A DNA stretch of 64,000 bases, taken from an archaeon (GTDB lineage: Archaea; Nanobdellota; Nanobdellia; Pacearchaeales; GW2011-AR1). Positions 14,541 through 38,994 of this stretch are shown piece after piece; positions within the stretch are counted from its first letter, which is position 1; every line of letters begins with the position of its first letter. The notes under the pieces are model-generated. The model was given only the letters and a program-made list of their open reading frames with translations, had not been told where the DNA came from and searched no databases. The position numbers and the translations under genes were made by a program. Location of the stretch: contig JAIORZ010000006.1 of assembly GCA_021107855.1 (NCBI GenBank), positions 32,480 to 96,479 of the forward strand, read 5' to 3'.

Positions 14541-14981
14541 ATGAAAGAGAGAGGTTTGATTGGTATGATTATTTTGGGGATGTTTGGATTTTTGTTGATT
14601 GTTGGAATTGGGGCTGGGATTTATTTTTACAATTTTCATGTGTTTAAGGAAATTCGGATTTGTGTTGGGGAGGGTGAGAATACTATGTTCCCTTGTAATA
14701 CTCAGGAAGATTGTGTTAATGTAATGAGGGAGGCTGACTTGGATTTTAGTGTTTTAGATGGGGCTCCGGATTTTGTGGTGAAGAATTTTAATGATATTTT
14801 AGAGAGTGCCGTTTATTGTGAGGAGAGTTGTTTTGTTGGGAATGTGCGTGGGATTGATTATGAGAGTGGGGAGATTGAGGGATTGGAGAGTTGTTTAGAT
14901 GGGGAGGAGGAGTTTGTTATGGAAATTCGGGGGAAGGAAGGGGTTGAGATTTTGAAGTGGATGAAGGATAATAAAGATTAA
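14541..14981 (+). CDS. N-terminally membrane-anchored Cys-containing protein, unknown function
   Basis: TM helix LIGMIILGMFGFLLIVGIGAGIYFY followed by a soluble domain with 7 Cys. Confidence 0.45.
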   Translation: MKERGLIGMIILGMFGFLLIVGIGAGIYFYNFHVFKEIRICVGEGENTMFPCNTQEDCVNVMREADLDFSVLDGAPDFVVKNFNDILESAVYCEESCFVGNVRGIDYESGEIEGLESCLDGEEEFVMEIRGKEGVEILKWMKDNKD

Positions 14982-15958
14982 GATTCGGCTGCCTGTGTTG
15001 CTCCGAATACGATGTTTCCTGTGCATGTTCCGGCGACTCCTGTTGGAACGTAGATTCTCCAGTATGTTGGTTTGATTGTGTCGTCTGTCGTGTCGTCTGT
15101 TCTTGAGGTTAGGTTGAATTGTTTGACTGCTGGGGTCGTGGTTAGGTTTGTGTAGTTTGCTTGGAACTGGGTGAAATTGAGTTGACCTGGAGCTGATGTT
15201 GTTAGGTTGTATTTTTCTAAGTCGACGGAGATATTTTTTGATGCGCCTAAGGTGCAGTTCATTGCGTTGCCGTCGTTCGGATTTGCTCCATATCCTTCTA
15301 GTGAAAGGTTGGCTTTTACGTTCCCGTAATTTGTGATATTAATTGTCTGTTCGTTTGAGACTGATGTTGCATTTATTAGTCCGTAGCTAATCCAGTCTGG
15401 GAGTCCGAGAGAGAGGAGTGGCGAAATTGTTCCTTGTTTTGTTCCTGTCCCTATGCCGCCCTCTGTGTCGTTTGCTTGTATTGTGCAGTTCCAGCTTCCC
15501 GCGTTTGCATAATATAATATTTGGAATGTGCAATTTGCCAGGGCGCTTTCTCCGTCGTCATTAAATCCATTAAATGAAATAAATGATGTGTTTATATGAC
15601 AAGATGAGTTTGTGTAGTGGTTGTTGTTATCGTCTGGGTTTGATTGTGGGATGGATGAGTCGAAAAATGTCGCGTTGGCCGCTGTTATGTCGGCTTCTCC
15701 GTTGTAGTCTACAATGACCGCTACGCACTCGACGAGTGTTGTTGAATTTGGAGTTAGGGTTATGTCTACACCTCCGTTGATTGACATATTGTGTATTTCT
15801 GGGGCTGTGTTCCCGACTGTTAATTCGGATGTTGTGTTTGTATTGGGGGAACCTATTCCTGCTAAGACTTCTTGTGGTGCGAAGGAGAAGAGTGCCAATA
15901 ATAGTAGCACTTCTAAGATTATTAGCGTGATTCCCGTTAATGGATTTTCATTTTTCAT
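14978..15958 (-). CDS. secreted/surface protein, family A paralog 1 (C-terminal motif YWRIYVPxGVAGTCxGxIxFGATQAAxS)
   Basis: N-terminal hydrophobic leader with an embedded Glu (GITLIILEVLLLLALF), N-x-S/T-rich body, conserved C-terminus shared with 16470-17462 and 47945-49114. Confidence 0.6.
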   Translation of the reverse strand: MKNENPLTGITLIILEVLLLLALFSFAPQEVLAGIGSPNTNTTSELTVGNTAPEIHNMSINGGVDITLTPNSTTLVECVAVIVDYNGEADITAANATFFDSSIPQSNPDDNNNHYTNSSCHINTSFISFNGFNDDGESALANCTFQILYYANAGSWNCTIQANDTEGGIGTGTKQGTISPLLSLGLPDWISYGLINATSVSNEQTINITNYGNVKANLSLEGYGANPNDGNAMNCTLGASKNISVDLEKYNLTTSAPGQLNFTQFQANYTNLTTTPAVKQFNLTSRTDDTTDDTIKPTYWRIYVPTGVAGTCTGNIVFGATQAAES

Positions 15959-16469: not shown

Positions 16470-17462
16470 TTAACTTGCGGCTGCTTGTGTTGCACCAAAT
16501 ATTATTGATCCATTGCATGTCCCGGCGACTCCTTTTGGAACGTAGATTCTCCAGTAAGCTTCCTTGATTGCTTCATTTACTGTGTCATTTGTTCGGTAGT
16601 CTAGTTCGAATCGTCTGATTGGGGGAGCACCGCTTGTTAGATTTGTATAGTTTCCTGCGAGTTGAGCTAGGGTGAATTGTCCTGGGTTTGGTGTAGTTAG
16701 ATTATACTTTTCATGTTCTATGGCTATTGTCCCTATATTTCCCAATGTGCAGACCATTGCCAAGTTGTCGTCCTCTACTGCTCCATATCCTTCTAGCGAG
16801 AGGTTGACTTGCACATTTCCGTAATTTGTAACGTTTGTTGTGTTTTCATTTGAGACTTCTGTTGCGTTGACTATCCCGTAGTTGATTGTGTCGGGGAGTC
16901 CGAGTGAAAGAAGTGGGGAAATTGTTATGACGTCTGTGTTTTCTCCCATCCATCCGACTGTATCATTTACTGTTACATGGCAAATCCAATCTTCCGCGTT
17001 CGCGTAGTATTCTACTTGGAATGTGCAATTTGCTAACGAGAGGTAGGGGTCGTCTGTGTAACCATTATACCCCCCTGTGTCTGCATCAATTACGCAAGAT
17101 GAGTTTGTGTAATGATAGTTATTGTCGTCTGAATCTCCTGATGAGGAGGCTACTGAATCATAGAATGTTGCGTTGACCGCTACGATGTCGGCGTCACCGT
17201 TGTAATCTCTTAGGATTGCCATACATTGGACTAATGTTGTGGCATTTGGGGTTAGGATTAGAGAGGCTGCGTCGTCGTCGATACTTACGTTAATTACTTC
17301 AGGGTATGTATTCCCAACGGTTAAATTCGTGAGTACTGTTGCATCAGGGGTTCCTATTTCTGCGATTACCGACGAGGGGACGAAGGAGAAAAATGCTAAG
17401 AGAAGTGAAATTTCTAAGAAAATTAGTCCAATCCCTATTGCTGTCTTATTTTTTGTTTTCAT
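16470..17462 (-). CDS. secreted/surface protein, family A paralog 2
   Basis: N-terminus MKTKNKTAIGIGLIFLEISLLLAFF, C-terminus YWRIYVPKGVAGTCNGSIIFGATQAAAS; alignable with 14978-15958 over its full length. Confidence 0.6.
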   Translation of the reverse strand: MKTKNKTAIGIGLIFLEISLLLAFFSFVPSSVIAEIGTPDATVLTNLTVGNTYPEVINVSIDDDAASLILTPNATTLVQCMAILRDYNGDADIVAVNATFYDSVASSSGDSDDNNYHYTNSSCVIDADTGGYNGYTDDPYLSLANCTFQVEYYANAEDWICHVTVNDTVGWMGENTDVITISPLLSLGLPDTINYGIVNATEVSNENTTNVTNYGNVQVNLSLEGYGAVEDDNLAMVCTLGNIGTIAIEHEKYNLTTPNPGQFTLAQLAGNYTNLTSGAPPIRRFELDYRTNDTVNEAIKEAYWRIYVPKGVAGTCNGSIIFGATQAAAS

Positions 17463-17468
17463 GTTTCA

Positions 17469-18233
17469 TTATCCTAGTTCCACGTATATGTAATATGCAG
17501 TTGTTCCTGTGTTTGTTTCATTCCCGTTTTCCGGGACAATCATTTGAAAATCATATGTGGCTCCGTCATAACCTTGTTCGTCTGCTTCTAAGACTGTTGC
17601 AAATACTATGTCTGTGTTTGTGGAATCGTAAAGAATGACTTCTTCGAATTTGGTATCTGTGACATTATTTACATATGTGTTTGTTGCGGAACAGGTGTTT
17701 GTTGTAATTGTGGTTCCTGCAACTAGAAAAGTTTCGGCGTTGCTAGCGGGAGTAAAAGTTGATGTGATGTTGTCTTCGCCTGTCTGTTCCATGGCTACAT
17801 CTTCTGCTGTTATTTGTGCTGCGTTTGCGCATCCTATTGTGGTCCATTCAATTGTTGCGGAGGCTCTTGTTGCATAGACCTCTCCTGTAACTGTGCTCAT
17901 TGTCCAATCATAAATTGTCGAGCCTGTGGAATCGTCTAGTGTGAATTTCCCTTCTAACTGCCCCACGAATGCTTTCCAATGCGGATTTTGAGATGTTGCT
18001 GTTATGTTAAATTTTGAAATATATCCTCCAGAAATATTAACCATTTGACCTCCAGTAGCAATTCCTGTTGTATTTGAGACATGTGTGATTGCACTTGGTC
18101 CGGTTGGGATTGCGATTGCTAGGGTGGATAAAAATATTAGGGATAAAAGAATCACACTAATTACTATCGTTTTCTCTTTCATTGCTTGTTTCTTGGGTAT
18201 TCCCATTCTTCTCTTTCTTGTAGATTTTTGCAC
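17469..18233 (-). CDS. secreted protein, family B (YYFYVELE family) divergent member
   Basis: Signal peptide, then ...DSTGSTIYDWTMSTVTGEVYAT...TTAYYIYVELG; shares the family's conserved core and C-terminal motif. Confidence 0.55.
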   Translation of the reverse strand: MQKSTRKRRMGIPKKQAMKEKTIVISVILLSLIFLSTLAIAIPTGPSAITHVSNTTGIATGGQMVNISGGYISKFNITATSQNPHWKAFVGQLEGKFTLDDSTGSTIYDWTMSTVTGEVYATRASATIEWTTIGCANAAQITAEDVAMEQTGEDNITSTFTPASNAETFLVAGTTITTNTCSATNTYVNNVTDTKFEEVILYDSTNTDIVFATVLEADEQGYDGATYDFQMIVPENGNETNTGTTAYYIYVELG

Positions 18234-18276
18234 CCTTTTTATTGGGGCAAAAAATTGTTAAAAAAAATAAATCTTT

Positions 18277-19005
18277 TTACTCTAACTCTACGTAAAAGTA
18301 GTAGGTAGTTGTAGCTGTATTTGTTCCATGTCCGTCTTCTAGAACTAGCATTTCGAAATCGTGATATGCATTATCAAAGCCCGCGACGTCTTCTTCGTCT
18401 AAGATTGATGTGAAGATAACTTGCGTGTCTGCGCTTGAATCGGTTAGTAAAACTTCTTCGAAATTGTTATCCACGCTTGCTCCTGTACTATCATATATGC
18501 TTGTACTTGCGCAATCTCCTGCTACAAATTGCACGTTATTTGTAAAAAATTCGTCATGAGTCCCAGCGTCGGAAAATGTTTCATTGACTCCGTCGACATC
18601 GTCTGAGCTAATGTTGAATAATGTTTCAAGCGCGGAATGGTTTCCTGCTAAATCGAAACATGCAATATTTACCCATGCTACTGATGTATCTGTGGTTGCG
18701 TAAATTTCACCTTCAGGAGAAGCTAGTGTCCAGTTATACATTTGATTATCTGAAGCGTCTGCCAATTGAATTGTACCTGTTACGTTACCAAAATAACCTT
18801 GCCAAGACTGAGTTATTGAAAAACCAGAAACTGTTAATTCTGTTACATTCCCTGCTAGTGCTTCATGGTCTTGCGCTAGATCCATTGGAGCTCGTTCAGT
18901 CTTCACTTCTGTATAATTTGCACCAAACGGCTGAACGGCCATAACGTTTACTGCTAGAAACATCGTTAGAATTAATACCAATAATGTTAGTGCTTTTGTG
19001 TTCAT
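18277..19005 (-). CDS. secreted protein, family B (C-terminal TTYYFYVELE motif)
   Basis: Signal peptide MNTKALTLLVLILTMFLAVNVMA; ALAGNVTELTVSGFSITQSWQGYFGNVTGTIQLADASDNQMYNWTLASPEGEIYAT; ends TTTYYFYVELE. Confidence 0.65.
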   Translation of the reverse strand: MNTKALTLLVLILTMFLAVNVMAVQPFGANYTEVKTERAPMDLAQDHEALAGNVTELTVSGFSITQSWQGYFGNVTGTIQLADASDNQMYNWTLASPEGEIYATTDTSVAWVNIACFDLAGNHSALETLFNISSDDVDGVNETFSDAGTHDEFFTNNVQFVAGDCASTSIYDSTGASVDNNFEEVLLTDSSADTQVIFTSILDEEDVAGFDNAYHDFEMLVLEDGHGTNTATTTYYFYVELE

Positions 19006-19159
19006 CTCTTTTAACCTCCTTTTGATTATTTGTTCATACCATTAGTAGTATGTTACCCGTTTTGAATAGCAATATTGTTTATAAATCTTCTCTTTTTTCA
19101 AAAGTGAAAGAGTATTTCAAAAGTGAAAAACTTATATAGTTTGTATACGTGGAAAATGG

Positions 19160-19693
19160 ATGGAAATCAACGTTTTGTCGGGATTATTGGATGATAAGTT
19201 GATTAAAATTATTTCGTTGTTTATGAAATATCCCGATAAACGGTTTTCTATGAGTGAGGTTTCGAAGCTCAGTGGGATTAATGGGGCGACGACTTTTAGG
19301 ACTTTGAATAAACTTGTGACGGAGAATTTGATACGGGCGACGGTTATAGGGAAGACGCGGAGTTATCAGTTGTCGCAAGGTGAGAGGACGTCGTTATTGG
19401 TTCGGCTTTTGAAGAAGGATAAGGTTAATGTTTTGGATATTTTCTGTGAGAAGGTTAAGGAGTTGCCTAGGGTTAAGACGGTTTTGTTAGATTCGAATAA
19501 CGTGGACGGGGCTAAGGTTATTATTGTTGGGGATTATCCGTCGAAGGATAGAGTTGAAAAAATTTGTGAGGATATTCAGAGTGATAGGAAGTTTAAGATT
19601 GATTTTGTGGAGTTGACGCCGAAGCAGTATTTGGATTTGAGGAAGTTTGGCACTATTCCTTCGGGGAAGCGGATTTTGTTTACTCGGGCCTAG
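19160..19693 (+). CDS. winged-helix transcription regulator with C-terminal domain
   Basis: N-terminal wHTH (FSMSEVSKLSGINGATTFRTLNKLVTENLI); convergent with the giant gene, 4-nt overlap. Confidence 0.5.
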   Translation: MEINVLSGLLDDKLIKIISLFMKYPDKRFSMSEVSKLSGINGATTFRTLNKLVTENLIRATVIGKTRSYQLSQGERTSLLVRLLKKDKVNVLDIFCEKVKELPRVKTVLLDSNNVDGAKVIIVGDYPSKDRVEKICEDIQSDRKFKIDFVELTPKQYLDLRKFGTIPSGKRILFTRA

Positions 19694-22600
19694 GTTATTT
19701 CCATGTAGAATGCGACGGATGTTTGGGTGGCGGCATGGTATTCCCTGAGTTTTGCTGGAACTCTGAGTTCATAGTCCGTTACCTCGTATGAGCCTGCGGT
19801 GTCTTTGGAAATTCTTGTTACGAAGATTATGTCTTCTTTTTCGGTTGTGTCGTATTCGGAATCTGTGTCGTCGCTGTAGTCCCAGAGGATTCCTGTCTTG
19901 AATGATGAGGAGTTGATTGATGTTGTTACTGGAATGTATGGAATGTGTTTTCCGAATATTGTGAGGTTTTGGGTTTCGTTAATCTCTCCTGCGTTTAGGT
20001 AAAGAGCTTCTAGTGAGTCGGGAAATTGCGTCGAGCCTAGAATTGTGTCGATTTCTTGAATATCATTAGTTGAATTTGCGCCGGATGGTTTCTTGCCGAT
20101 TGCTTGTAGTGTCGTCCAATCTACGTTTGAGTCGTAGTCAGCGACGTAGATTTTGGAGTTTAGTAGACCTGTTTCGTTCCATGTGACTATTTTTGCTTCT
20201 ATTGAATCTGCGAGTTTGAGTTCGCTGTCTGGATTTATATCGCCGTAGAATAGATGCCAACTTGAGATAGTTATGGTCTTGTTTGCTTTGTTGTTTGTTT
20301 CTAAGTTTTCTGTGATTAAATCAGCTGGGTCTACTTTTACAAATATTTGCGTTGCTCCTATTTCTGCATCCCATACGACGGATGCGTTGCTGAAATTTAG
20401 TGCTGAGACTGAGATGGTTTGCGTGCTCCCAATTTGTGTTCCTGTTGTGTCTGGGTCGCCTGAGTAGAATTCGACTTGAACTGATGTGGCGTTAATTAGT
20501 GCTAGGTTGTGGACCGTTGCTGTTATCGTTATGGTTTCGCCTTCTGTTGGAGTTGTTGAGTTGAAGAATATTTGGCTTTGGTTGATTTGGAGGTCTGGGT
20601 ATGTTCGGTTGAAGACGTAGGTTAGGGATGTGTTTGTATTTCCTAGTGTGTCCCAGCATGTTACGTTCCAGAAATGTTGTCCGATGGAAAGTCCTGAGAC
20701 TGATTCTAGTTTTGAGAATCCTGATGTTACTAGGACATTGTCTTCTTCTACATTGCCATCGACGGTTAGGTTACAGGTTAGTAGTGTATCGAGTGCATCC
20801 GTCGCTGTCCAGTTGAAATCGGTGTCTACATCGTTTGCATCAACGCCGGTGTTATTGGGGGGTGAGTTTAGTTGAATTAATGGAGGACTTAAATCTCTTG
20901 AGAAATTTCTATATACGCTCATATTAATATTTGAATCTGTATCTGTACATTCAACGCTCCAATTATGTTTTCCTTCTAGAATTCCTGAAACTGTAAAATT
21001 ATTTATTATATTTTTTATGACTCCTGAGTCGGTTTGGTTTAATTTGTTGTCAATATATATGCTACAATTTACTAGTCCTAGTGCGTCAACTGGTGTGTAG
21101 CTAAAATTAATTGTTGAGTTTGTTGTTAGTATATCATTTGCTGGGCTGTCTAGGTATATTTTTGGTGGCGCGTAAACGGTAAAATTATATATTATGCTAC
21201 TGTTGTAGTTTCCGGCATCGTCTACGCAGGTTGTATTCCAGTTGTGTGCTCCGTCTACTAATAAAATTGGAACAATGTTTGTGCCGTTTATTAGCTCTCC
21301 TGTGAATTCAACGTCTCCGTCTACACTTAAATTGCAAGAGATGGAATCGTCTAGATTTTCTGTGATATTAAATGTGAATGTTACATTGTTATCACCTACG
21401 GTCGCACCTTCTGGCGGGTATATGAAATCTACTTGGGGGGCAGTAGTGTCTACATAGATTTCCCACGTTTCGCTTTCTCCGACCATTAAGGTAATATCTG
21501 TTACGTTGACACTCCAGTTGTATTTTCCGTCTGCTAGCGTTACTTCAAAATAATTATTTGCCCCACTTGTGACTATGGTTTGGTTTGTCATATAGACAGA
21601 ATTGTTAATAATTAATTCCGTTTTGGAAAATCCTTGGTCGTCTTGTGGAAAGTAAGTAAAATTGAAATTGGATGTGTTCACCCAGGAAGCATTTGGTGGA
21701 GAGATGAGAGAGATTCCTGGGGCAGTATACTTTGTGAAATTAAATACTGAAGTTGTGTTTATGTTTGAGGCATTGTCCCAACAGGTTACGTTCCATTCTC
21801 TATATCCGTCCAAGATTCCTGAGATATTTCTGGAAGCGTTCGTTGCATTGGCTAATGCAAAATTTGCATCTACTACTACAGAATCGATAGTCAAGTTACA
21901 AACTAAAAATTCGCTTATTTCATCAATGGCTTCAAATTCGAAGGTTACATTGGAAGTGTATACGTCAATTCCGAGTGGATAATAGGCAATAATATCTGGG
22001 GCATTGTTGTCGATGAACATGACGTTTTCCTCGCTGTAAGCGGCTAGTCCGTAGCTGTCAGAACAATTTACATAATAAGTGTATCTTCCGTCTGCTAATC
22101 CTTCTATTTCGAGATTGTTTACAGAGCCAAGAGATATCCCGGAGCTGACTGTTTCATTTGCTACTCCATTTAGATAGGCTGTGCAAAAATCTATGTCGGT
22201 ATTGTCATAAGGTGTGAATTGAATTGTGAATGAGTTCCCTTGATGGTAAGTCATGTTGCTGTTGTTTAAAAATACCGTGGGAGGTTCTTCTATGGTCACT
22301 AATCTTGTTTCGCTGATTCCGGAGTAACCTGAATCATCCGTGCAATTTACGTACCAGTAAGTTGCTCCATCGTCTAATAGGGAAGAATTCTGGGAGGTTA
22401 TCGCTCCTGAGGTCGCTGAGAGATTTGAATCTATAGAATTATTCACATAAATACTGCAATTTAAATTTGAATCAATTGCATCTGTGACATTAAATTGGAA
22501 GTTTACGATTCCGGATGAAGATGTGCTTTCGTTGTCTGGGTTTACTAGGACAATAGAAGGAGCGTTTAGGTCAACTCCAAAGGTTCTATTCGCAGTTGCG

Positions 22601-25600
22601 TTTGAAGTTAAACTTAAATCATAACAGGTGATGCTCCAATTATAATATCCTTCTGCAAATCCTGAAATTATAAAGAAGTTATTTACTCCGAGATTTATTG
22701 AGTCGTTTGTTTCATTTATTGCTCCATTTATTAATAAATCACAGTGGTCCATTCCTGAAGCATCGTCGGGTAGATATGTGAAATTCATGGTTCCGTCGGT
22801 GTCAATGTAGTTGTCTTCGGGGGAGACTAGGCTTACTGTTGGTGGAGTGTCTGTAATGGTGAATCTCCATGTTTCGCTAGTTGTGCTTCTTGATGATTCG
22901 TCGTAACAAGTGACGTTCCAATAGTGTGCTCCGCCACCTATCGCTCCGGAAGATACGTTTGTTTCGGTGTTGTTTAATGCAGGAACTCCTGTGTGGATTG
23001 TTGATCCGTCTAAAACAATGTCGCAAGATAAATTGCCGTCCATATTGTCGGTAGGTTTGAAGCTTAGATTTATTACTCCAACGGAATGATCTGAATTGTT
23101 TGGTGGGAAAATTAGAGTAACCTCTGGGTTTTCTAAGTCAACATAAAATTCCCAAGTTTCGCTTTGATTAGTTTCGGAGACGTCGGATAAATTGACACTC
23201 CAATTGTAGGTTCCAGAACTTAATCCGGTGATTGTGAAATTATTATTTCCTGAAGAAATTACACTTGCGTTTGTTGCGTTATAAATTCCGTTTAAAATTA
23301 ATGTAGCATTTGTAAAATCTCCGTTTGGGTCTGTTGCGTTGTAAGTTAAATTCCAGCTGCTGCTGTTAATCCAGGTTGTATTTGTTGGGCTGACTAAATT
23401 AACTTGAGGTGCTACGCCTGATTGAACGTTTAATGTGCTTTGGGCATTTGCGTTAGCTGTTTTATATCCACTTGTGACATTTACATCATAACTTCCGAAG
23501 ACACTTGTAGAATTAAAGCTATAATTGAAGAAACCTGTTGAATCTGTGAAGGCTCCGGTATAATTGAATGTTAATTCTTGTAGTTGAGGACTGTAGGTGG
23601 AATTGAATGCTCCCATTTCAATTTTATATTCTAGGTATCTGGATATATTAAGGTCGTCTGTGATGTTTTCGCCATTTGAAATTTCTGTCCAGTCGGTCCA
23701 ACTAATTTTGTCATTTGATGTTCTAATATAGATTAAAACTCCTGTGCAATCACTGGAACTAAAACTTACTGATAATTTTGGTCTGTCAGCTTGGGTTGTA
23801 TATTCTCTGCTTCTGAAAAGAACATTCCCAGAACCTATGGGATGAATTGCAAATCCGTTATTGCTAAGAGTTCTATCTGTCCATCTTTGAACGGTTGATG
23901 TAACTCCTAAGGATTTTGTTCCGGTTGAGGCTGTGCTCATGTATCCTAGGGAAGTTGTATTTATGGAAGGGGAACTTGCAAATCCTGCAGAACTCCATAA
24001 ATCGTCGCTGGTTCTGTATAGATAAGTTACTTCTTCTTCGTTCCAGCTTTGTAATAGTTCATAAAAATTAGGATTGTCTCCTGTGTCATAAACCGTCAGA
24101 CTTAAATTGGCACTGCTAATTGTGGAATTGTAGGGAATCTTATTTAGTCCATAGCCTGTAATATCCTTGAATTTTATGAGGGATCGTTCTGTGTCTGGTG
24201 AGGAGTCGACTGTGAGGAAGGCATCTGTCCCATAGTTTGTATTTTGGTTTGCGCTTGTGACATACGAGTCTTCTGTGCTAGAGTAAGAATTAGAATCTCC
24301 ATCTTGATAACTGATTGTTCCGGAGCATGGCTTTGCTACGGTGCTCCAAACAACGGTGTCCCAATTAACCTTTGCTCCAGCGTCTAAAATTCCGGAAAAA
24401 TTACCGGAAGTGTTTGTTCCGTCAAGTGTAAATTCTCCTCCTGAGTATGTAACATTATTATAGTCGGATAAGATTTCAATCTCATCTTCTGTAAAATTCA
24501 ATGCATTTTCGGAGGAACCTTGATTTGTTAAATTTTCGAGGGGGATGAATGTTCCATTAAACCAGAAGTTGATTGCATTTTTCGGGATTGCTGTTCCGTT
24601 TGATAAATTGAGATAACCTGTCATGAAAATATCTTCTTCTCCTATCGTTGTAGAGGGGTTTAGGTTTAGGTTTAAAATTAAATTTAGGATGTCAAAAGTT
24701 CCGTTATAGGAGTCTTCAAGTCCAGTTGTGTCGTTTGCATAAATTGTGTAATTATAGCTTCCATTAAAGCTTTCGTCTGTTTCTATTATGCCGCTCCAGA
24801 GGTCTCCGAAAATGTTGCTTAGGAAGATTATTGCTTTTTGAACACCCCCGATTGCGCCTTCCCAAATTATGACCCAGACACTATCTGTGCTGCTATCGCT
24901 GACGTTGACATTTATTGTTAGGTTCTCTCCTTCGTATAAGGGATTTGTGGAATTTACGATTTCTCCATCCTCATTTGTTTGGTTGATAAAAGTAATGTTT
25001 GGGGCTGAGGTGTCCACTGTGAATTCTACGCTTTTTATTCCTAAAGCTCCGGAGGTATCATTAGCATATATGAACCAGGTGTTGTTTCCGTCTACTGATG
25101 TGATTCCGGTTATATTTTGGTTACAAGTCATTGTGGTGTTGGTTTCTCCAAGGTTTAAGCTGTACCAACAAGTGTCGAGGGTTACTCCGGTTGCATGGGT
25201 GATGCTATAATTCATTTCTATTACTTGTGTGTTGTAAATATAGGTTTCCGGATAGAGGATGGTAATTGTCGGAGGAGATTCCCATGTGATGTTTAAGTCA
25301 TTAAGGGAAATATTTATGGCGCTGTCTGCAGAATATAGGACTCTGTATAAGAGATTTGAGCCAGGAGTGAATCCTGTTAAGTTGCCGCCGTTGGTAATTG
25401 TGTTCCAGTTCGCTCCGTTATCTACGCTAATTTGGACAGTGATATTATTTGTTGCATTTGTTCCTGTTTCTGCCCAGCCTGTGTATGAGATACTATTTAT
25501 TCCTTGTGATGCATTCATGACATGCGAAGTGAAATTCGCGGTTCCGCCTGAAATTACATCTCTAACATCCATTGTATCAACTCCATACATTAAATTTTCC

Positions 25601-28600
25601 GCAGCAGGAGACAGCCCGGACCAATTTTCATTTCCACTGTAATCAACTCCGCTTGCAGAATAAACCATTGTTGAAGCTGGGCTTAAATAGCTGATAGCGT
25701 TATTTGTTCCGTCGACATAAAAAGAAACCAAATAATCTTTAGAGGAATCGATGCTTAAATTTAACCAATCTGTATATTGTGAACTAGAGGCGGAAATTAT
25801 ATAACTAGTTGCTCCTCCGAATTCTAAAGCGGTCCAGGTTCCTCCGACGCAATCACTTGTTGACCCACTTCTTTCGCAAATAGTTGGATTATTGATTCCT
25901 AAAGAGCCGTCTGTTCCCGAAATGAATTTAATTCTTACAGAATCTCCGCTAGTGTTAATGGAACTAGATTGTAAAATATTTCTGTATGAATATGTGCTTC
26001 TTCCGCTATTTGCCCAAGTGCCATCCCCTGTTTGGTCGTTTGCGTCCCAAGAAATAACAGGGGAGCTTTCAGAAGTGGAAGCGTAGAAGGTCATATTTTC
26101 TCCGTCCCAAATTATACTATTTGTTTCTCTAATTGAAGAATTATCATCAAAAGTATCATAATAATATTTGTCAAAATCTACATCAAAACTGGTGCTATTA
26201 GAGGATGTGTCTCCTACTGAATTGTTTGCATAAAAGGTAATTGTTTGCGAGCTGCCTTCTTCTAAGATTATGGGGAAAATCCAACTTCCTTCGCAGTTTT
26301 TACAAATAGTTTCATTGGCTCCTCCATTAATGGACATTATTAAAGCTGCCGCACTCGAATTAAGTGTGACGTTAATAATGGGGGTGAAATCTTGCTCTAT
26401 TGGGGTTGTAATTCCTTCAATATGGATTCCTGGCGGGGGGTTTATTGTCGTCGACCAAGAAATGTTTAAATCCAATAATGAAAGATATGATAAATCTTCT
26501 ATATCAAAAAATACTCTATAAATGAAATCATCTCCTGTTGTGATAGATGTTAGTCCTGAATTTTTTGTAGCTTCATACCAATGAACACCGTCGTTTGCAC
26601 TTACTTCAATGGTTAAAGAATTATTTGCGTTGCTGTTTGCTTCGTTCCAGGTGATATTTGTAAATTTGGTTATATCGTCGGTTAAATCTACAGAATAGGA
26701 AGTGAAAGATCCGCTTTTTCTACCTCCAGTAATAATTCCTGCAAAATCGTCATGCCTGGCTTCGTCATTTAAATCGTTATAAATTCCTACTTTCCCCTCG
26801 GGATAATAGACATCTGTGGCTTGAGTTGCTAAGACTCCGTCGACATAACAGGAGACAGTGTGGTTTTTTATTTCTAATTTCATCTCGGTCCAAGTACTTA
26901 ATGAATAAGATGTCCCGTCGCTTGTTGTGGAAATGGTGGTTTCTCCGCCATTCGAAACTTCGACAATTTCTGCGTCTATTGGAGCTTGTTGTCGCACTTG
27001 GCATCTATAATAATTTGAGGAATTTTCATATCCAAAAACAAAACCTGAGTAGTCATTATCTGTAGAATATAAATCGTAAGTAAAATTATAATCTGTATCA
27101 TTGTCCATTGTGAATGAATTATAATATGCGATTGCGTCATTTGCATTTTGAGTTTGTCTCAATTCTCCGGAAATTGTTTGCCATTGTCCTCCAATTAAAG
27201 ACCACTCTTGTGAATCTGTAAAATCTTCGTTGATTACTGTGTCTTGGCTTAATTTGAGAGTTATATTCCCATTTAAAGCTTCTATCTCATCTGAGGTATA
27301 AACATAAGAAGAATCATTGAATGAATCATAATAATTATTGTTCATATTTACTGTGAAGGAAACGCTTTCGTGATTTTCTTCTCCCATCGGATTTCTGACA
27401 TAGACATTGACTGTATAGCTAGCTTCTCTTAAGTATAGGACTTCATCACTAGAGCCATTGCAGTTTGTGCAAAGAGTTTCATTTGCTCCGCCGTCTATAT
27501 TGTACCATAGGCTGCTGGCGGGACCAGTTAAATTAATATCTAAAACTGGAGTTGCGTCATTAATGTCTCCAGAAGTTGGATATGAAATTGTGATATTTGG
27601 AAGTTCTTGGTCAACTGAAATTGTGACATTCCAGATATCTGTTATGTCTGAATTAGAAAGATTGGATGTTGAGTTTGCAAAAGCAAAGAAATAATATTTC
27701 GAGTCTAGTTCTCCTGTTGCGTTTACAAAGAATGTAAAAATTTGGCTTTCTCCTTCATTTAGATAACTTGAAGTCAGGGGGTTTGAAGAGGCGTTTGTAT
27801 AGAATGGAGAGCCGGAGCCTACTGGGATAATTCCTTTATTCATGCTTGGGGTTTCGGTTGTGAAATTAACTGAATCTATATACCACCCTTCTCTTGTAAC
27901 GCTGTCGTCTGCGAAGAAATGGAATCTAAAGGTTACATTTTCTCCTGTAAAATTTGAGATATTGGCTATAACGTGTGCAAAAGATCCTGAAGATCCAATA
28001 TATCCATCGCCCCAGATGGCTTCACCATCAACTAAATCAGGTCCTCCGTTATAGTCATTATAATTTGCGTTATATCCTCCGGAAATAAAATTATCAAACT
28101 TTTTCCAGGAACCAGTTTCGTTAATTCTATATTCTAAAAGTCCCCCGTCATAACCGTTATTTTCTACGTACATATAATGATAGAAATCGAATGTGTGGTT
28201 ACCATCTTCTAAATCGTAGGTGGGAGTTACTAGAATTGAATCTGAATAAATCAAATAATTTCCAGATCCGGTGTCTCCGCATTTCCATGCTTGACTTCCA
28301 TTGTGTGTGCTCTCCGTGCTTATATGCCATTGGTCTTCTTTTTCATTTAAAGCAAAGTGTTCGAATCCTTCTGTGCCTGTTTCGAAATCGTTGTAAGTTT
28401 CTACTATTGGGTCTAGGGTCACATTAATTGTTCCACAATTTCCCTGGGTACATGTTAGATTTAAAGTTACATTAAAAAATTCATATTGTTCAACGTAGAC
28501 ATTTGAGGAAGTTGGCCATAAAACTTCTAAACTAATTTCGGGCTCTCCGAGATAGGTTTGGATTCTTAACTCTGAACTATTTGCCCAAGGTGAAAAGAAT

Positions 28601-33730: not shown

Positions 33731-34428
33731 AGGGGCGAGTGATTGGAATTATGTCGTTTAAGGGGGGAGTTGGGAAAAGTGTTTCTGCGATTAATTTGGC
33801 TGCGGGTTTGTGTAAGTTGGGGAAGCGGGTTTTAGTTGTGGATGGAAATTTTTTGTCGCCTAGTTTGCATTTTTATTTGGGGCTGCTTGTGCCGGAGAAG
33901 ACTTTGAAAGAGGTTGTTCGTGGTGAGGTTGGGGTTGATAGCGCGATTTATGAGCATAAGTCTGGGATTCATTTGTTGCCGTGTAATTTTTATAAGAAGA
34001 TTGATTTGGGAAAATTCAAGAAGATTGTTGACAATTTGAGGGGGAGGTATGATTATATTATTATGGATTCGGGTCCGAGTTATACCGACGAGATTATTGC
34101 GATTTTGATGGTTTGTGATGAGTTGATTTTTGTTGCTACGCCGGATTATCCTACGTTGGCTGCGACTGTGAAGGCGGCGAAGATTGCGGAATATAAGGGC
34201 GTTCAGGTTCGTGGGATTATTGTGAATCGGAAGAGGAAAGGCTTGGGTTTGAAGGTTGGGGATATTGAGAAAACGGTTGGGCTTTCTGTTGTTGCTGAGG
34301 TTCCGGAGGATGTAAAGATGATTAAGGCTGTCGAGAAATTTGTGCCGGTTGTTGGGGCGTATCGATGGAGTCGGAGTGCGAAGGTTTTTTTAGATTTGTC
34401 GAAGGAGATTTTGGAATCTGTTGATTAG
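33727..34428 (+). CDS. MinD/ParA-family P-loop ATPase
   Basis: Deviant Walker A KGGVGKSVSAINLAAGL; DYIIMDSGPS Walker B region. Confidence 0.8.
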   Translation: MKGRVIGIMSFKGGVGKSVSAINLAAGLCKLGKRVLVVDGNFLSPSLHFYLGLLVPEKTLKEVVRGEVGVDSAIYEHKSGIHLLPCNFYKKIDLGKFKKIVDNLRGRYDYIIMDSGPSYTDEIIAILMVCDELIFVATPDYPTLAATVKAAKIAEYKGVQVRGIIVNRKRKGLGLKVGDIEKTVGLSVVAEVPEDVKMIKAVEKFVPVVGAYRWSRSAKVFLDLSKEILESVD

Positions 34429-35477
34429 TCTTCTGTTCTGGATTTTGCTAGAAGGGCTAGGCTTAATGCTGATATTGATATACCTGATACCATTGTAAAA
34501 GTTGCGATTGCGGGGGAGAATCCTAGCGCTTGAACATCTAGATATGCTATCATGAGATTGAATCCTATCATCTCTAATGCTATTTCTTTGATGAATTTGC
34601 CCCCGACGAACATGAGTAATATTGCTATGAGAAATGGTAGAATTATTCCGCCTAATATCCATCCTTGTTTTTGTGAATTGCCGGAGCAGTTTACTTCTGT
34701 GCGAGGGAGGAATCCTGCTTCGTAGACTATTTTGGTGTTTTCGCAGTCTGAAAATTTTGCGACTGTTATGTGTCCGAGTTCGTGGATAGTGACTGTTCCG
34801 ATGAAGATAAAATTTGTGATTATTACTATGAAAATGAGATGTTTTAGGAAATGTAGGACTGGGGATTTTGCTTTTCGTGTAGTATAAGAGCGACGGCTGG
34901 GGATTTTTTGGAGGAATTTTAGAAAAGGTATTGTAAATGTTAGGAATAGGATTACTGAAATAAGAATTAGAATTGGTGTTATATTTTTCCAGAGGATTGC
35001 GAAGATGTAGAGAAGGAGTGAGACTGAGGTGTAGAGGATTATGTATCTTGTGGTGTTTTTGTGGAGACTTATTATTGAGAGGAAAGCTAAGAGGGTGATG
35101 AAAAGGGATGTCGGAATTGCGAAGTGGATTGACATGGGGGCGAAGGATATTAGTAGGATTAAGGATGAAAAGGGAAAGAGAGCGTAAAAGATTTTTTTGT
35201 CTTTTGTGATTTTGTAGAGGATTGTTAAGAGGCAGGCGGTTTGGATTGTTAGTATTATTGAGAAAACTATGAGAAAGTCTGTTGAGTTGAAGATGAAGGA
35301 ATTGGTTGCCCAGAGAAAAAGGACTGTTGCGAATGTGATGTATGTTAGTCCGAGAATTATTAGGGGGATTTCTTTGGAGTTGAAGGATGAGGTTCGGATT
35401 TCTTTTATGAGGAATAAGGATATTACTAGAAATATTGCGAGAGCTATGAAGGAGGATGCGAGGAGCATTATTTCCAT
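34425..35477 (-). CDS. polytopic membrane zinc metalloprotease candidate (S2P/M50-like)
   Basis: 8-9 TM helices; HELGH inside a predicted TM segment; downstream FNLMIAYLD resembles the S2P NxxPxxxLD(G) motif. Confidence 0.45.
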   Translation of the reverse strand: MEIMLLASSFIALAIFLVISLFLIKEIRTSSFNSKEIPLIILGLTYITFATVLFLWATNSFIFNSTDFLIVFSIILTIQTACLLTILYKITKDKKIFYALFPFSSLILLISFAPMSIHFAIPTSLFITLLAFLSIISLHKNTTRYIILYTSVSLLLYIFAILWKNITPILILISVILFLTFTIPFLKFLQKIPSRRSYTTRKAKSPVLHFLKHLIFIVIITNFIFIGTVTIHELGHITVAKFSDCENTKIVYEAGFLPRTEVNCSGNSQKQGWILGGIILPFLIAILLMFVGGKFIKEIALEMIGFNLMIAYLDVQALGFSPAIATFTMVSGISISALSLALLAKSRTED

Positions 35478-35560: not shown

Positions 35561-36271
35561 TTATTCTAGTTCTATGTAAAAGAAATAGGTCGTTGTGGAT
35601 GTGTCTCCACTGTGTCCATCTTCTAATACTAGCATTTCGAAGTCATGGCTTGCACTATCGAAACCTAATAGATCCTCTTCTAGCAAAGCTGCAAAAACAG
35701 TATTTGTTCCGTCGTATAATAGTACTTCGTCGAAATTGCCGGCTACACTTGCTCCGGTGCTGTCGAAAATTTGTGTACTCATACATTCATCGGCAGTGAA
35801 GCTTGTGCTTCCAACTACGAATGCGTCATGTGTTTTTGAGTCACTAAAAGTCTCATTAATACCATCAATCGAGTCGTTGATATTATAAGTAGTTTCTAAT
35901 GCTGTTCCATCAGCTGTCCAATTGAAGCATTCTATGCTTGCCCATGTTGGAGATGCTATTGAGGCGAAAACTTCTCCGCTTGGAGATGCTAAAGACCAGT
36001 TATACATTGGGTTTCCCGATGCGTCTGCTAGTCGGATTGCTCCTGAAACATTACCGAAGTAACCTTGCCAAGACTGGGTAATTGAACTACCTGAAATTGT
36101 CAGCTCTGTTACGTTTCCTGCATATGCTGAGTGGTTTGCTGCAGTGTCTGCGGGGGCTCTTGTGCTTGCTCCCGGGGTAACTGTTCCTGCTCCGTTTGGG
36201 TCTGCGAGAACTAATCCGAAACTTAAAACTAGTAATATCGTCACTAATATAAAAGAGTGTATTTTATTCAT
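35561..36271 (-). CDS. secreted protein, family B (TTTYFFYIELE C-terminus)
   Basis: Signal peptide; AGNVTELTISGSSITQSWQGYFGNVSGAIRLADASGNPMYNWSLASPSGEVFAS... Confidence 0.65.
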   Translation of the reverse strand: MNKIHSFILVTILLVLSFGLVLADPNGAGTVTPGASTRAPADTAANHSAYAGNVTELTISGSSITQSWQGYFGNVSGAIRLADASGNPMYNWSLASPSGEVFASIASPTWASIECFNWTADGTALETTYNINDSIDGINETFSDSKTHDAFVVGSTSFTADECMSTQIFDSTGASVAGNFDEVLLYDGTNTVFAALLEEDLLGFDSASHDFEMLVLEDGHSGDTSTTTYFFYIELE

Positions 36272-36896
36272 TTTTATCTAAACCTCCTTTCAAATTAATG
36301 TCGTCGTTCGCAATTTCTTGCGAGACGTATATCGAGAATAAGTGCTCGGAATCTAACTTTTCCAATGGAGCGGAAGAAGGTATTACTTCAAGCGAGATCT
36401 TCTTCTCTAAATTTTTTTGTATCTCATTTATTTTATGAGCGGTAGATTTGTCTTTTGATGTGATGTAAACTTTTGGTGTTGATAATTTTGTGTAGACTGA
36501 TATTGATGAAATGTTTTCTAGGTGGTTTTGTATTTGCCAGAATAGTTTTTGTAGGACGATTTGGATTTTTGTGTTTTCGAGGCACCATATATTAACGATG
36601 ACTTTGTTTTCTTCTGATAGGGGAATTAATTTTTTATCTGGGGAATTTTTTGCTAGAGGGATTAGGTATAGCGATTCTTCTGAGATTGAAAAGAGGCTTC
36701 TGGGTTTTCCTTTTTCGAATGCTCCGGTTTTTTGTTTTTTTACTAAGCCCGCTGCTTCGAGTAATTTTAGTTGTTGACTTACGAAAGATGTTGTTGTTTG
36801 TAGTTTTTGTGCGATTTCCATTGGAGAAGATGGCCTACTAATGATTATCCTTAGCATGTCCCACCTAGGTGACGAAAGAAAAGAATCAAGCTCCAT
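36264..36896 (-). CDS. winged-helix (ArsR/TrmB-like) transcription regulator with C-terminal domain; 8-nt overlap with the downstream family B gene
   Basis: PRWDMLRIIISRPSSPMEIAQKLQTTTSFVSQQLKLLEAAGLVKKQK is an HTH. Confidence 0.55.
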   Translation of the reverse strand: MELDSFLSSPRWDMLRIIISRPSSPMEIAQKLQTTTSFVSQQLKLLEAAGLVKKQKTGAFEKGKPRSLFSISEESLYLIPLAKNSPDKKLIPLSEENKVIVNIWCLENTKIQIVLQKLFWQIQNHLENISSISVYTKLSTPKVYITSKDKSTAHKINEIQKNLEKKISLEVIPSSAPLEKLDSEHLFSIYVSQEIANDDINLKGGLDKNE

Positions 36897-38680: not shown

Positions 38681-38994
38681 TTTATTTCCTCTTCTATTTC
38701 TTTAATGAGTTTTTGGAGCATTTTATAATCTCGTTTTTTGTATGTTGATTTAAAAATTTTGATTTTGGATGGTAATAATATCAATTTTGATTCCGCAATC
38801 ATCGCCTTTCTTTTTTCAATTTCCCGCACTTTAGACTCTAATTCTAAGAGTTTTAGGTCTAATTTTGAAGCTACGAGATATTTTAAACTTTCTGTTTTGT
38901 CCTCGTAGTTTTGTAATTTTCGGACTTTTTTATAATGTTTTTTATCTATAATCTTTTTAGAGATTCTTCTTATTTTTTTGAATTCTTTTTTCAT
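38665..38994 (-). CDS. small basic coiled-coil protein (109 aa)
   Basis: K/R-rich N-terminus, LKLLELESKVREIEKRKAMIAESK helix; start overlaps the ATPase stop. Confidence 0.4.
   Translation of the reverse strand: MKKEFKKIRRISKKIIDKKHYKKVRKLQNYEDKTESLKYLVASKLDLKLLELESKVREIEKRKAMIAESKLILLPSKIKIFKSTYKKRDYKMLQKLIKEIEEEIKCLIS

What the first reader, a model, noticed from the sequence alone, without database searches (positions are those of the whole stretch)
17469..19005. Four-copy family of ~24-kDa secreted proteins with a conserved aromatic C-terminal motif (family B), in two pairs each next to a wHTH regulator
17469-18233 and 18277-19005 are tandem, and 35561-36271 and 37044-37829 are a split pair. 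All encode Sec-signal proteins of ~215 mature residues with a shared core (ITQSWQGYFGNVTGTIQLADA..NQMYNWTLASPEGEIYAT) and the terminal sequence TTYYFY[VI]EL[EG]. Two members have identical mature N-termini (VQPFGANYTEV). Each pair is beside a wHTH regulator (19160-19693; 36264-36896), and a fifth copy of the domain is fused to the membrane ATPase. The invariant aromatic C-terminus looks like a sorting, anchoring or polymerisation signal.
Basis: seen in the sequence. Interest (0 to 1): 0.6.

Follow-up and report, generated by a model that had tools for sequence, protein, structure and literature searches.

The report
DPANN secreted "B-domain" surface-apparatus family
The four small secreted proteins are real paralogs of an uncharacterised domain family found only in tiny symbiotic (DPANN) archaea, and the same domain also ends a giant adhesin-like protein and starts the outer part of a membrane motor ATPase, which suggests a building block of an undescribed cell-surface machine.

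Summary
All four ORFs are Sec-signal paralogs, three canonical "B" and one divergent "B'". The aromatic C-terminus (YYFYVEL-x-COOH) is conserved in over 1,000 homologs. All named homologs come from Pacearchaeota, Woesearchaeota or Nanoarchaeota, and all are annotated "hypothetical".

The ATPase-fused copy is real (hhalign 98%).

There is no Pfam, NCBIfam, PHROG or PDB sequence match. A confident AF2 model (pLDDT 88) has no Foldseek match in PDB, whereas the neighbouring family A gives clear tandem-Ig hits.

Across 85 related loci the genes form two conserved modules:
- giant > (wHTH) > B > B' > A
- ATPase > 109-aa protein > coiled-coil protein > B > wHTH > B ... M350

The modules usually lie side by side and together span about 50 kb.

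Best reading (inferred, confidence about 0.45): B is an extracellular assembly or docking module. It would link secreted subunits and the giant adhesin to the ectodomain of a HerA/FtsK-type membrane ATPase. The C-terminal motif is the last β-strand of the domain, not a classical sorting signal. Strand-exchange polymerisation and ligand binding remain open.

The parts
18277..19005 (-). Canonical B protein (242 aa). It lies downstream of the giant protein. The signal peptide is cleaved after VMA, and the protein ends TTYYFYVELE.
17469..18233 (-). B' protein (up to 254 aa; start codon uncertain). It belongs to a divergent ancient subfamily and ends TAYYIYVELG. It is followed 6 nt later by a family A gene.
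37044..37829 (-). Canonical B protein (261 aa). It overlaps the stop of the upstream coiled-coil gene by 4 nt. This position (directly after the coiled-coil gene) is conserved in 36 loci.
35561..36271 (-). Canonical B protein (236 aa). It overlaps the wHTH-210 gene by 8 nt. The post-wHTH position is conserved.
41898..42467 (-). Divergent B-like domain (aa 57-246) of the membrane ATPase. It sits directly after TM1 on the extracellular side. Its YYFY strand is internal, not C-terminal.
38991..42635 (-). 1,214-aa HerA/FtsK-superfamily ATPase. Order of parts: TM1 (aa 27-50), a ~620-aa ectodomain (B-like domain plus CarboxypepD_reg-like domains), TM2 (aa 673-700), a cytoplasmic P-loop domain (Walker A GATGMGKS, Walker B VFDEVH), and a coiled-coil tail.
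19693..20265 (-). Sixth B-type domain: the C-terminal ~190 aa of the giant protein. It lacks the N-terminal ~40 residues of free B and ends VAFYMEIT.
19690..30696 (-). 3,668-aa giant secreted or anchored protein with a CARDB domain and many Ig-like repeats. It is the first gene of module 1.
19160..19693 (+). wHTH protein (177 aa), transcribed divergently from B. It is conserved at this place in 15 loci.
19096..19128 (-). Two exact copies of TTTCACTTTTGAAA, 19 nt apart, in the wHTH-177/B intergenic region, upstream of a TTTATAAA box and a GGAGG site. The same motif occurs 4 times at 19-nt spacing upstream of the orthologous B gene in L007.
36264..36896 (-). wHTH (MarR/ArsR-like) protein of 210 aa, embedded between two B genes. 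It is conserved in 32 loci.
37826..38680 (-). 284-aa coiled-coil protein without a signal peptide. It lies between the ATPase and B and is conserved in 36 loci.
38665..38994 (-). 109-aa basic helical protein. It overlaps the ATPase stop and is conserved.
16470..17462 (-). Family A secreted protein (330 aa), made of two tandem Ig-like sandwiches. It is unrelated to B and is the last gene of the giant>B>B'>A module.
14978..15958 (-). Second family A paralog (326 aa).
47945..49114 (-). Third family A member (389 aa), in module 2.
34425..35477 (-). Polytopic membrane protein (350 aa) with an HELGH motif and a weak Peptidase_M50 hit. It is conserved at the end of module 2 in 26 loci.

Best explanation
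Family B is the free-standing form of a lineage-specific extracellular domain. The domain is ~190-215 aa and beta-rich, with one conserved Cys pair and many N-glycosylation sequons. It is the shared building block of a conserved two-module cell-surface apparatus of about 50 kb in Pacearchaeota/Woesearchaeota-type DPANN archaea.

Proposed mechanism. B and B' are exported by Sec and their signal peptides are cleaved. Outside the cell, B-type domains bind each other. The free B and B' subunits would bridge or co-assemble with two other B-like domains. One is at the C-terminus of the giant adhesin-like protein encoded just upstream. The other lies next to the membrane in the ectodomain of a (presumably hexameric) HerA/FtsK-type ATPase. 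This would tether or build an extracellular structure on that motor. The aromatic C-terminus is the last beta-strand of the domain, and its free end is probably needed at the B-B interface. It is not a cleaved or lipid-anchoring sorting signal.

Shown: homology of the six domains, secretion signals, domain architectures, and conserved gene order.
Inferred: physical B-B contact, the role of the C-terminus, and the link to host interaction.
For: 1. Six B-type domains occur in one window, in three architectural contexts: free, C-terminal on a giant protein, and membrane-proximal on the ATPase.
2. Gene order is conserved in 85 loci from about 49 assemblies: giant>(wH177<)B>B'>A and ATPase>s109>cc>B>wH210>B...M350. 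The two modules are usually adjacent. Each module therefore encodes three distinct B-type domains.
3. The paralog classes are ancient and largely positionally orthologous. B' is 31% identical to B. The nearest neighbour from another locus shares the same gene context in 27/36, 23/36 and 15/28 cases. This argues for non-redundant partners.
4. Extracellular features: 236 of 240 homologs have an N-terminal hydrophobic signal, 220 of 240 have exactly two Cys in the mature part, and the median is 8 sequons.
5. In all secreted forms the domain is at the extreme C-terminus (148 of 148). This includes 24 longer proteins with variable passenger regions, some of which carry beta-helix/NosD domains. That is the pattern expected of a shared docking or assembly module.
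6. Conservation is high (mean column identity 47%, motifs nearly invariant). This fits a structural interface better than a fast-evolving host receptor-binding head.
7. The ATPase copy lies about 10 residues after TM1, close to the cell's own membrane.
Against: - No direct evidence of B-B binding exists. Multimer prediction was not possible with these tools.
- The monomer AF2 model is complete and confident, so nothing forces an oligomer.
- If the N-terminal hydrophobic segments of the giant and mid-size proteins are uncleaved anchors, their B domains would sit at the distal tip. That would fit a ligand-binding head better.
- B proteins use Sec, so the ATPase is not needed for their export and its link to B could be indirect.
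Confidence: 0.45

Rival explanations
1. Strand-exchange fibre (a specific sub-case of assembly). B and B' polymerise head-to-tail by inserting the free C-terminal YYFYVEL strand, or the conserved N-terminal extension, into the neighbouring subunit. The giant or passenger-bearing proteins would be tip subunits. The ATPase-fused copy, whose strand is not free, would be the membrane anchor that ends the chain.
For: - The chain ends exactly one residue after [LI] in every secreted form and continues only in the membrane-anchored copy.
- The tip/shaft/base distribution of architectures mirrors chaperone-usher and type V pili (established knowledge).
- The giant C-terminal copy lacks the ~40-residue N-terminal extension that B, B' and the mid-size proteins have.
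Against: - AF2 places the C-terminal strand inside a complete monomer at good confidence. The N-terminal extension is not a beta-strand in the model.
- There is no fold similarity to any donor-strand pilin, TasA/AbpA, thread or cannula subunit.
- No tandem B-B fusion was found that could be modelled.
Confidence: 0.17
2. Ligand-binding head. The B domain is a lectin-like or adhesin module that binds a conserved molecule on the host cell or on the archaeon's own envelope glycans. It would be displayed at the far end of giant and mid-size stalk proteins, with free B/B' as soluble or accessory binders.
For: - B sits at the C-terminal end of proteins whose N-termini carry a hydrophobic anchor-like segment.
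- 13 of 24 longer relatives have a Nup98-like HF[ST]xY autoproteolysis motif about 100 aa upstream of B. This arrangement is typical of force-sensitive adhesion proteins.
- Many conserved aromatic and acidic residues are present.
Against: - Very high sequence conservation.
- A copy lies directly next to the cell's own membrane on the ATPase.
- No similarity to known carbohydrate-binding folds.
- The fixed three-paralog sets per module are not explained.
Confidence: 0.2
3. General envelope (S-layer-type) lattice protein. B and B' would be abundant glycoproteins that tile the cell surface, and the other B-like domains would merely insert their carriers into that lattice.
For: The proteins are secreted, carry multiple sequons, are highly conserved, occur in multiple copies and are lineage-wide. 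The C-terminal B-like domains could then act as lattice-insertion modules.
Against: - A 24-kDa protein is small for an archaeal S-layer protein.
- The tight operon linkage to an ATPase, coiled-coil proteins and wHTH genes is unusual for S-layer genes.
- No fold match to solved S-layer proteins.
Confidence: 0.08
4. Cargo or sorting signal. The C-terminal motif would be recognised for secretion by the FtsK/HerA ATPase (as in type VII secretion), or for covalent anchoring by a dedicated membrane enzyme such as M350.
For: - The family is linked to a membrane FtsK/HerA-type ATPase and to a conserved HExxH membrane protein.
- The C-terminal position is strict.
Against: - B proteins carry ordinary Sec signal peptides.
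- The motif is a structured core strand, kept internally in the ATPase copy.
- There is no hydrophobic or basic tail.
- There are no WXG/YxxxD-type or PGF/PEP-type features.
Confidence: 0.05

Closest known systems
Chaperone-usher and Bacteroidetes type V pili (subunit logic only)
   Same: One domain type appears as free shaft subunits, as the C-terminal domain of multi-domain tip adhesins, and as a membrane-anchored terminal subunit. In type V pili a terminal strand is essential for polymerisation.
   Different: There is no sequence or fold similarity. The organism is an archaeon with no outer membrane, usher, chaperone or lipobox. A HerA/FtsK ATPase carries the anchored copy. Polymerisation is unproven.
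TasA / archaeal bundling pili (AbpA), Sulfolobus threads, Pyrodictium cannulae (donor-strand filaments; PMC9245690, bioRxiv 10.1101/2022.04.26.489512 and 10.1101/2024.12.30.630787)
   Same: These are Sec-secreted, beta-rich, glycosylated archaeal or bacterial subunits that self-assemble outside the cell without a dedicated export ATPase.
   Different: There is no Pfam Peptidase_M73/TasA hit and no Foldseek match to solved structures in the PDB. The B model is a complete domain with no free donor strand.
Type IX secretion C-terminal domain (CTD) of Bacteroidetes
   Same: A conserved beta-rich domain is found strictly at the C-terminus of many otherwise unrelated secreted proteins, including giant adhesins.
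   Different: The T9SS CTD is ~80-100 aa, is cleaved by a sortase-like enzyme and needs an outer membrane. B is ~200 aa, also occurs free-standing and on an ATPase, and shows no sequence match.
Membrane FtsK/HerA-superfamily motors with two TM helices (T4SS coupling proteins TraD/VirD4, T7SS EssC, archaeal Ced ATPases)
   Same: The ATPase partner has a TM-loop-TM-P-loop topology. Its best, weak NCBIfam and PDB hits are CedD, TraD and HerA.
   Different: The hits cover only the P-loop region and fall far below the cut-offs. The extracellular loop is expanded to ~620 aa with a B-like domain and CarboxypepD_reg domains. The partner proteins are Sec-dependent.
Pacearchaeota/Woesearchaeota-specific protein-family module of unknown function (Module 98, Castelle et al. 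2021, PMC8204110)
   Same: This is a set of lineage-restricted, mostly extracellular or membrane families without functional prediction. Family B very likely belongs to it (inference; the family tables were not checked).
   Different: That work lists families statistically. Nothing read there mentions this domain, its fusions, or its operon with the HerA-like ATPase.

Membership tests
TasA/camelysin (Pfam PF12389) and archaeal bundling pilin AbpA | Sequence match to the Peptidase_M73/TasA profile | tested here: not met
   No Pfam hit at E<=0.1 for any of the four proteins. No PDB sequence hit at E<=10.
TasA/camelysin (Pfam PF12389) and archaeal bundling pilin AbpA | TasA-type jelly-roll fold | tested here: not met
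Donor-strand pilins (chaperone-usher, threads, cannulae) | Incomplete Ig-like fold with a missing strand, plus a free N-terminal donor strand | tested here: not met
   The AF2 monomer is complete. The N-terminal 24-64 region is non-strand but confidently packed. There is no Foldseek match to pilins, whereas the family A model does match FimH/CfaE/CsuE-type folds.
Donor-strand pilins (chaperone-usher, threads, cannulae) | Inter-subunit strand insertion in the polymer | not testable with these tools
   Only single chains from the window or from database hits can be folded. No natural tandem B-B protein was found.
Type V pilins (FimA/Mfa1) | Lipoprotein signal (lipobox Cys) and an Arg-specific N-terminal cleavage that frees a groove for a C-terminal strand | tested here: not met
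   The signal peptides end in AxA-type SPase I sites with no Cys. No Pfam hit. A frequently conserved RAP follows the signal peptide (consensus SxRAPxD), but cleavage there is untested.
Archaeosortase/PGF-CTERM, sortase/LPXTG, exosortase/PEP-CTERM sorting signals | A C-terminal tripartite signal: motif, hydrophobic helix, basic tail | tested here: not met
   0 of 240 homologs have a hydrophobic window in the last 35 residues. The proteins end ...VEL[EQNS].
Bacterial outer-membrane beta-barrel C-terminal signal | A terminal aromatic residue (F/W) as the last residue, and an outer membrane with BAM | tested here: not met
   The last residue is E/Q/N/S/G. The host is an archaeon.
T9SS C-terminal domain | Match to the Por_Secre_tail/TIGR04183 profile, ~80-100 aa | tested here: not met
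   No Pfam or NCBIfam hit. The domain is ~200 aa.
HerA/FtsK superfamily (for the ATPase partner only) | P-loop ATPase domain matching the DUF87/HerA profiles, with intact Walker A and B motifs | tested here: met
   PF01935 at E 1.8e-10, above the cut-off. PDB HerA 4d2i at E 5e-5. GATGMGKS and VFDEVH are read directly in the sequence.
T4SS coupling protein (TraD/VirD4) or Ced DNA-import ATPase (for the ATPase partner) | Full-length match above the family cut-off, and neighbouring T4SS/Ced components | tested here: not met
   CedD scores 29.6 bits against a cut-off of 600, and TraD 25 against 366. No VirB/Ced genes appear in the neighbourhood.
Viral jelly-roll capsid proteins (often paired with FtsK-type packaging ATPases) | Significant structural or profile match to capsid jelly-rolls | tested here: not met
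   Capsid proteins appear among the top Foldseek rows only at E 4-10 with TM 0.08-0.19. No PHROG hit. The locus is core-genomic and syntenic across many genomes.

The most novel reading that the evidence does not exclude
B domains stack or polymerise, possibly through their free C-terminal strand, into an extracellular tube or fibre seated on a hexameric HerA/FtsK-type translocase and tipped by the giant adhesin. This would be a previously undescribed archaeal nanomachine. Pacearchaeota and Woesearchaeota, which are thought to scavenge nucleotides (Castelle et al. 2021, PMC8204110), might use it to attach to hosts and to move DNA or other macromolecules across the contact.
Probability: 0.15. 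Interest if true: 0.85.

Novelty: categorically new. Interest (0 to 1): 0.62.

Why it matters
Pacearchaeota and Woesearchaeota are abundant, uncultured archaea with very small genomes. How they attach to and feed on hosts is unknown. Here a protein domain with no detectable relative in sequence or fold libraries turns out to be the common element of a conserved super-locus of about 50 kb. That is probably several per cent of such a small genome (inference). The locus combines giant adhesin-like proteins, small secreted subunits, coiled-coil proteins and a membrane HerA/FtsK motor. This gives concrete candidates for the host-interaction apparatus: specific proteins to look for in metaproteomes and cryo-tomograms, and specific complexes to model or reconstitute. 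If the B-B assembly idea is right, it would define a new class of archaeal surface structure coupled to a DNA-pump-type ATPase.

Tried and rejected
1. Known families. Pfam, NCBIfam and PHROGs scans of B and B' gave nothing beyond a sub-threshold Nis1 hit at E 0.075. An hmmsearch of the 5-sequence alignment A1 (the four paralogs plus the ATPase N-terminus) against PDB sequences gave no hit at E<=10.

3. Family A as a distant B relative: rejected (hhalign probability 2.7%). Family A is two tandem Ig-like domains.

4. Mobile element or provirus: rejected. A recombinase gene flanks module 1, but the locus is syntenic in about 49 assemblies and lies next to core genes. PHROGs is silent.

5. Recent gene conversion between the two VQPFGANYTEV copies: rejected. 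DNA identity is only 64-77%.

6. Further B copies in the window (second giant protein and the 636-, 683-, 646- and 404-aa proteins): none were found by five-round jackhmmer.

7. Natural tandem B-B proteins to mimic a dimer in AF2: none. The '2 stretches' cases are split alignments.

8. Literature. Searches for DPANN/Pacearchaeota with HerA, DUF87, donor strand or giant adhesin found no description of this family or locus. Only the generic statement about lineage-specific unknown families was found.
Full report
**1. Observation**

- 18277-19005 encodes 242 aa.
- 17469-18233 encodes up to 254 aa. It has a GTG start, with in-frame ATGs further in.
- 37044-37829 encodes 261 aa.
- 35561-36271 encodes 236 aa.

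The alignment shows three close paralogs and one divergent one. The divergent copy, 17469-18233, is 29-33% identical to the others and is called B' here. All four have a hydrophobic N-terminal signal with an AxA-type cleavage site. All have exactly two Cys and 6-7 N-x-S/T sequons. All end in [YF][YF][FI]Y[VI]EL[EG].

Two copies share the mature N-terminus VQPFGANYTEV. DNA identity between the paralogs is 64-77%, so they are old duplicates.

**2. How widespread and how conserved**

A word-indexed search found 1,142 homologs. A full HMM search of 1.84 billion cluster representatives found 1,257 representatives, 425 of them below 1e-30.

Every source name is 'hypothetical protein'. Every named organism is Pacearchaeota, Woesearchaeota, Nanoarchaeota/Nanobdellota or 'archaeon'. 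In the scan of GTDB species genomes, 165 stretches encoded a relative. The 80 loci kept all come from such DPANN assemblies, about 49 in number and often with two loci each. The window itself matches an NCBI MAG labelled 'archaeon' (locus tags K8R30_).

The C-terminal motif is conserved in all 120 closest hits. Among the 150 most diverse representatives, the domain ends 0-3 residues from the protein's C-terminus in 148 of 148 complete cases.

Among 240 stand-alone homologs:
- 236 have a signal-like N-terminus.
- 220 have exactly two Cys in the mature part.
- The median number of sequons is 8.
- None has a hydrophobic C-terminal segment.
- 226 match [YFW][YFWLIM][YFW][VILMAST][EDQ][LIVMF]x-COOH.

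**3. No known family, no recognisable fold**

Sequence libraries give nothing.
- Pfam, NCBIfam and PHROGs give no hit for B or B'.
- A profile search of PDB sequences gives none at E<=10.

A 94-sequence alignment gave an AF2 model with pLDDT 88 and pTM 0.82. It has the following parts.
- The signal helix.
- A confidently placed but non-regular N-terminal segment (residues 24-64).
- About twelve beta-strands with one inserted helix.
- A final strand at residues 236-241, which is the YYFYVEL motif.

Foldseek found nothing in PDB (best E 2.7, TM <0.2) or in BFVD.

**4. More copies than reported**

The ATPase-fused 'fifth copy' is not seen by plain hmmsearch. It is supported by three other tests.
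- hhalign gives 94.6% with a single sequence.
- hhalign gives 98.2%, E 4.4e-14, with a profile of 58 ATPase orthologs.
- jackhmmer started from B' reaches it at E 1e-49.

The copy occupies aa 57-246. It lies about 10 residues after the first of two TM segments (aa 27-50 and 673-700), so it is extracellular and membrane-proximal. Here the YYFY strand is internal (…TLTYYFYTDPYDE…).

- A 3-sequence profile gives 94.7%.
- A 37-sequence profile gives 97.5%, E 8e-12, aligned to the very last residue.
- jackhmmer from this segment recovers all four B paralogs in the window.

Giant-protein orthologs end FY[VI]E[IL]x, again exactly one residue after the aliphatic position. This copy lacks B's N-terminal ~40 residues. 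No further copies were found in the window.

**5. Other architectures elsewhere**

Twenty-four of the 150 representatives are 330-1,635 aa long with B at the extreme C-terminus. Their N-terminal parts vary and some carry beta-helix/NosD domains.

Thirteen of these carry an …HF[ST]xY[ST]xSE motif about 100 aa upstream of B. Six of the ten longer representatives scanned hit Pfam Nucleoporin2, the Nup98 S59 autopeptidase, whose cleavage site is HF|S. Only one of those six hits clears the family's score cut-off. B thus behaves as a shared C-terminal module for diverse passengers.

**6. Genomic context**

I classified ORFs in 85 related loci with HMM and jackhmmer searches. This revealed two strongly conserved modules.
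- Module 1: giant protein with a B-like C-terminus > (wHTH-177, divergent) > B > B' > A.
- Module 2: (s109<) u227< u238< ATPase > 109-aa protein > ~285-aa coiled-coil protein > B > wHTH-210 > B (or B') … (p404, p683, A) > M350 (an HExxH membrane protein) > second giant protein.

The ATPase>109>coiled-coil>B string was confirmed independently on three distant contigs, where ATPase identity is 50-56%. In several assemblies both modules lie on one contig 12-27 kb apart (coordinates). This matches the window, where the two modules span 14978-63882.

Within module 2 the window genes overlap by 4-16 nt: ATPase/109, 109/coiled-coil, coiled-coil/B and wHTH/B. This suggests one operon.

B' forms an ancient clade, 49% identical within the clade and 31% identical to B. 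The canonical B genes largely cluster by genomic position rather than by genome. The paralogs are therefore maintained as distinct, non-redundant components. Each module encodes three different B-type domains.

**7. The partners**

- The ATPase matches DUF87/HerA above the cut-off and PDB HerA weakly. Its Walker A and B motifs are intact. NCBIfam hits to CedD, TraD and HerA cover only the P-loop region and are far below the cut-offs. It is a HerA/FtsK-superfamily motor but not a member of a characterised subfamily.
- The ATPase topology is TM, ~620-aa ectodomain, TM, ATPase. This resembles a coupling-protein or EssC layout with a greatly enlarged outer loop.
- The 284-aa protein is a cytoplasmic coiled coil.
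- wHTH-210 passes the MarR_2 cut-off. wHTH-177 gives only sub-threshold HTH hits.
- The wHTH-177/B intergenic region holds two exact TTTCACTTTTGAAA copies 19 nt apart. They lie upstream of a TATA-like box and a GGAGG site. Four such copies at the same spacing lie upstream of the orthologous B gene in L007. This is a plausible operator array.

**8. Interpretation**

Shown:
- A lineage-restricted, secreted, probably disulfide-bonded and glycosylated domain.
- Three architectural contexts: free, C-terminal on giant or mid-size surface proteins, and membrane-proximal on a HerA/FtsK ATPase.
- Fixed sets of three B-type domains per module, conserved across many genomes.

Inferred: B domains bind each other. 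In this way they would assemble or dock secreted components, including the giant adhesin-like protein, onto the ATPase ectodomain.

Arguments for this reading:
- The shared-module pattern.
- The membrane-proximal copy.
- The non-redundant paralog sets.
- Conservation that is high for a host-recognition head.

The C-terminal motif is first of all the last core strand of the domain. Residues Y235, F237, V239 and L241 alternate with Y236, Y238 and E240. The motif has none of the features of PGF-CTERM, LPXTG, PEP-CTERM, T9SS-CTD or OMP signals (section 2). Yet the chain always stops one residue after [LI] in secreted forms and continues only in the anchored copy. This pattern fits a functional free C-terminus, for example at a B-B interface or in strand exchange.

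I rate the generic assembly/docking model at about 0.45. The rival readings are rated as follows.

| Reading | Confidence |
|---|---|
| Strand-exchange fibre sub-model | about 0.17 |
| Conserved-ligand-binding head | about 0.20 |
| S-layer-type lattice | about 0.08 |
| Cargo or sorting signal | about 0.05 |

The main uncertainty is whether the N-terminal hydrophobic segments of the giant and mid-size proteins are cleaved. If they are cleaved, B is the anchor end. If they are retained, B is the distal end.

**9. Comparison with the known, and novelty**

In logic the system resembles pilus systems, in which one domain type serves as tip-adhesin module, shaft and anchor. It also resembles T9SS-type shared C-terminal domains. 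In every tested defining feature B fails membership of these families (see the membership table).

The literature searches found no description of this family or locus. The closest statement is that Pacearchaeota and Woesearchaeota share a module of 51 lineage-specific, mostly extracellular or membrane families of unknown function (PMC8204110).

I therefore class the domain and its locus as lying outside known kinds. Two caveats apply. Function is inferred from context only. The more sensitive fold libraries could not be searched.

Noticed in passing
window 19096-19128 (also L007 9844-9912, L006 9842-9853, L086 336-366): There is a tandem array of the half-palindromic 14-mer TTTCACTTTTGAAA at 19-nt spacing between the divergent wHTH-177 gene and the B gene. 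It occurs nowhere else in the window. Four copies are present in a 73%-identical ortholog locus. This is a likely operator for the wHTH protein.
   Followed up: partly
P0148, P0184, P0229, P0152, P0266 and others (relatives from other genomes, not in the window): 13 of 24 longer B-terminated proteins carry an HF[ST]xY[ST]xSE motif about 100 aa upstream of the B domain. Six of ten scanned hit the Nup98-type S59 autopeptidase family, only one of them above the score cut-off. This may be a self-cleaving module in archaeal surface proteins.
   Followed up: partly
window ATPase aa 50-56 (nt ~42468-42488); N-termini of P0130, P0142, P0149, P0160, P0182, P0229, P0258: A recurrent [ILA]TG[FY] motif lies a few residues after the N-terminal hydrophobic segment, both in the ATPase (HYLATGYAS) and in many mid-size B-terminated proteins. 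It could be a processing or anchoring motif. It remains unexplained.
   Followed up: no
window 14978-15958, 16470-17462, 47945-49114: Family A has three members in the window (hhalign 100% for the third). AF2 (pLDDT 92) shows two tandem Ig-like sandwiches with six or more conserved Cys. The family is conserved as the last gene of the giant>B>B'>A module.
   Followed up: yes
window 15948-16368: Two small genes, a 67-aa wHTH (TrmB/HTH_24) and a 71-aa AbrB/MazE-like protein, are inserted between the two family A paralogs.
   Followed up: no
window 13960-14523 (and L002 12784-14033): A serine-recombinase-like gene lies immediately after module 1 in the window. A tyrosine integrase plus a recombinase lie at the same place in L002. 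These could be a variation or rearrangement function or an old integration scar.
   Followed up: no
window 34425-35477: This is a 350-aa polytopic membrane protein with HELGH and a weak Peptidase_M50 hit (E 0.017). It is conserved after the last B gene of module 2 in 26 loci. It may be a processing protease of the system.
   Followed up: partly
window 52093-63882: The second giant protein (3,929 aa) has MAM, Big_13 and other Ig-like domains and no B-like C-terminus. It is followed by a 636-aa secreted protein and a SpoIIM-like membrane protein (49355-50158).
   Followed up: partly
window 31939-32553 and 33727-34428: Between the two modules lie a KaiC/DUF7504-like small ATPase-fold protein and a ParA/MinD-type ATPase (KGGVGKS read directly from the sequence).
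   Followed up: no
window 4059-4170; 5280-7702; 11707-12414: Core-genome markers lie near the locus: a 5S rRNA, two MacB/FtsX-type permeases and an RNA polymerase subunit D/Rpb3-like gene. They support a chromosomal context rather than a mobile one.
   Followed up: no
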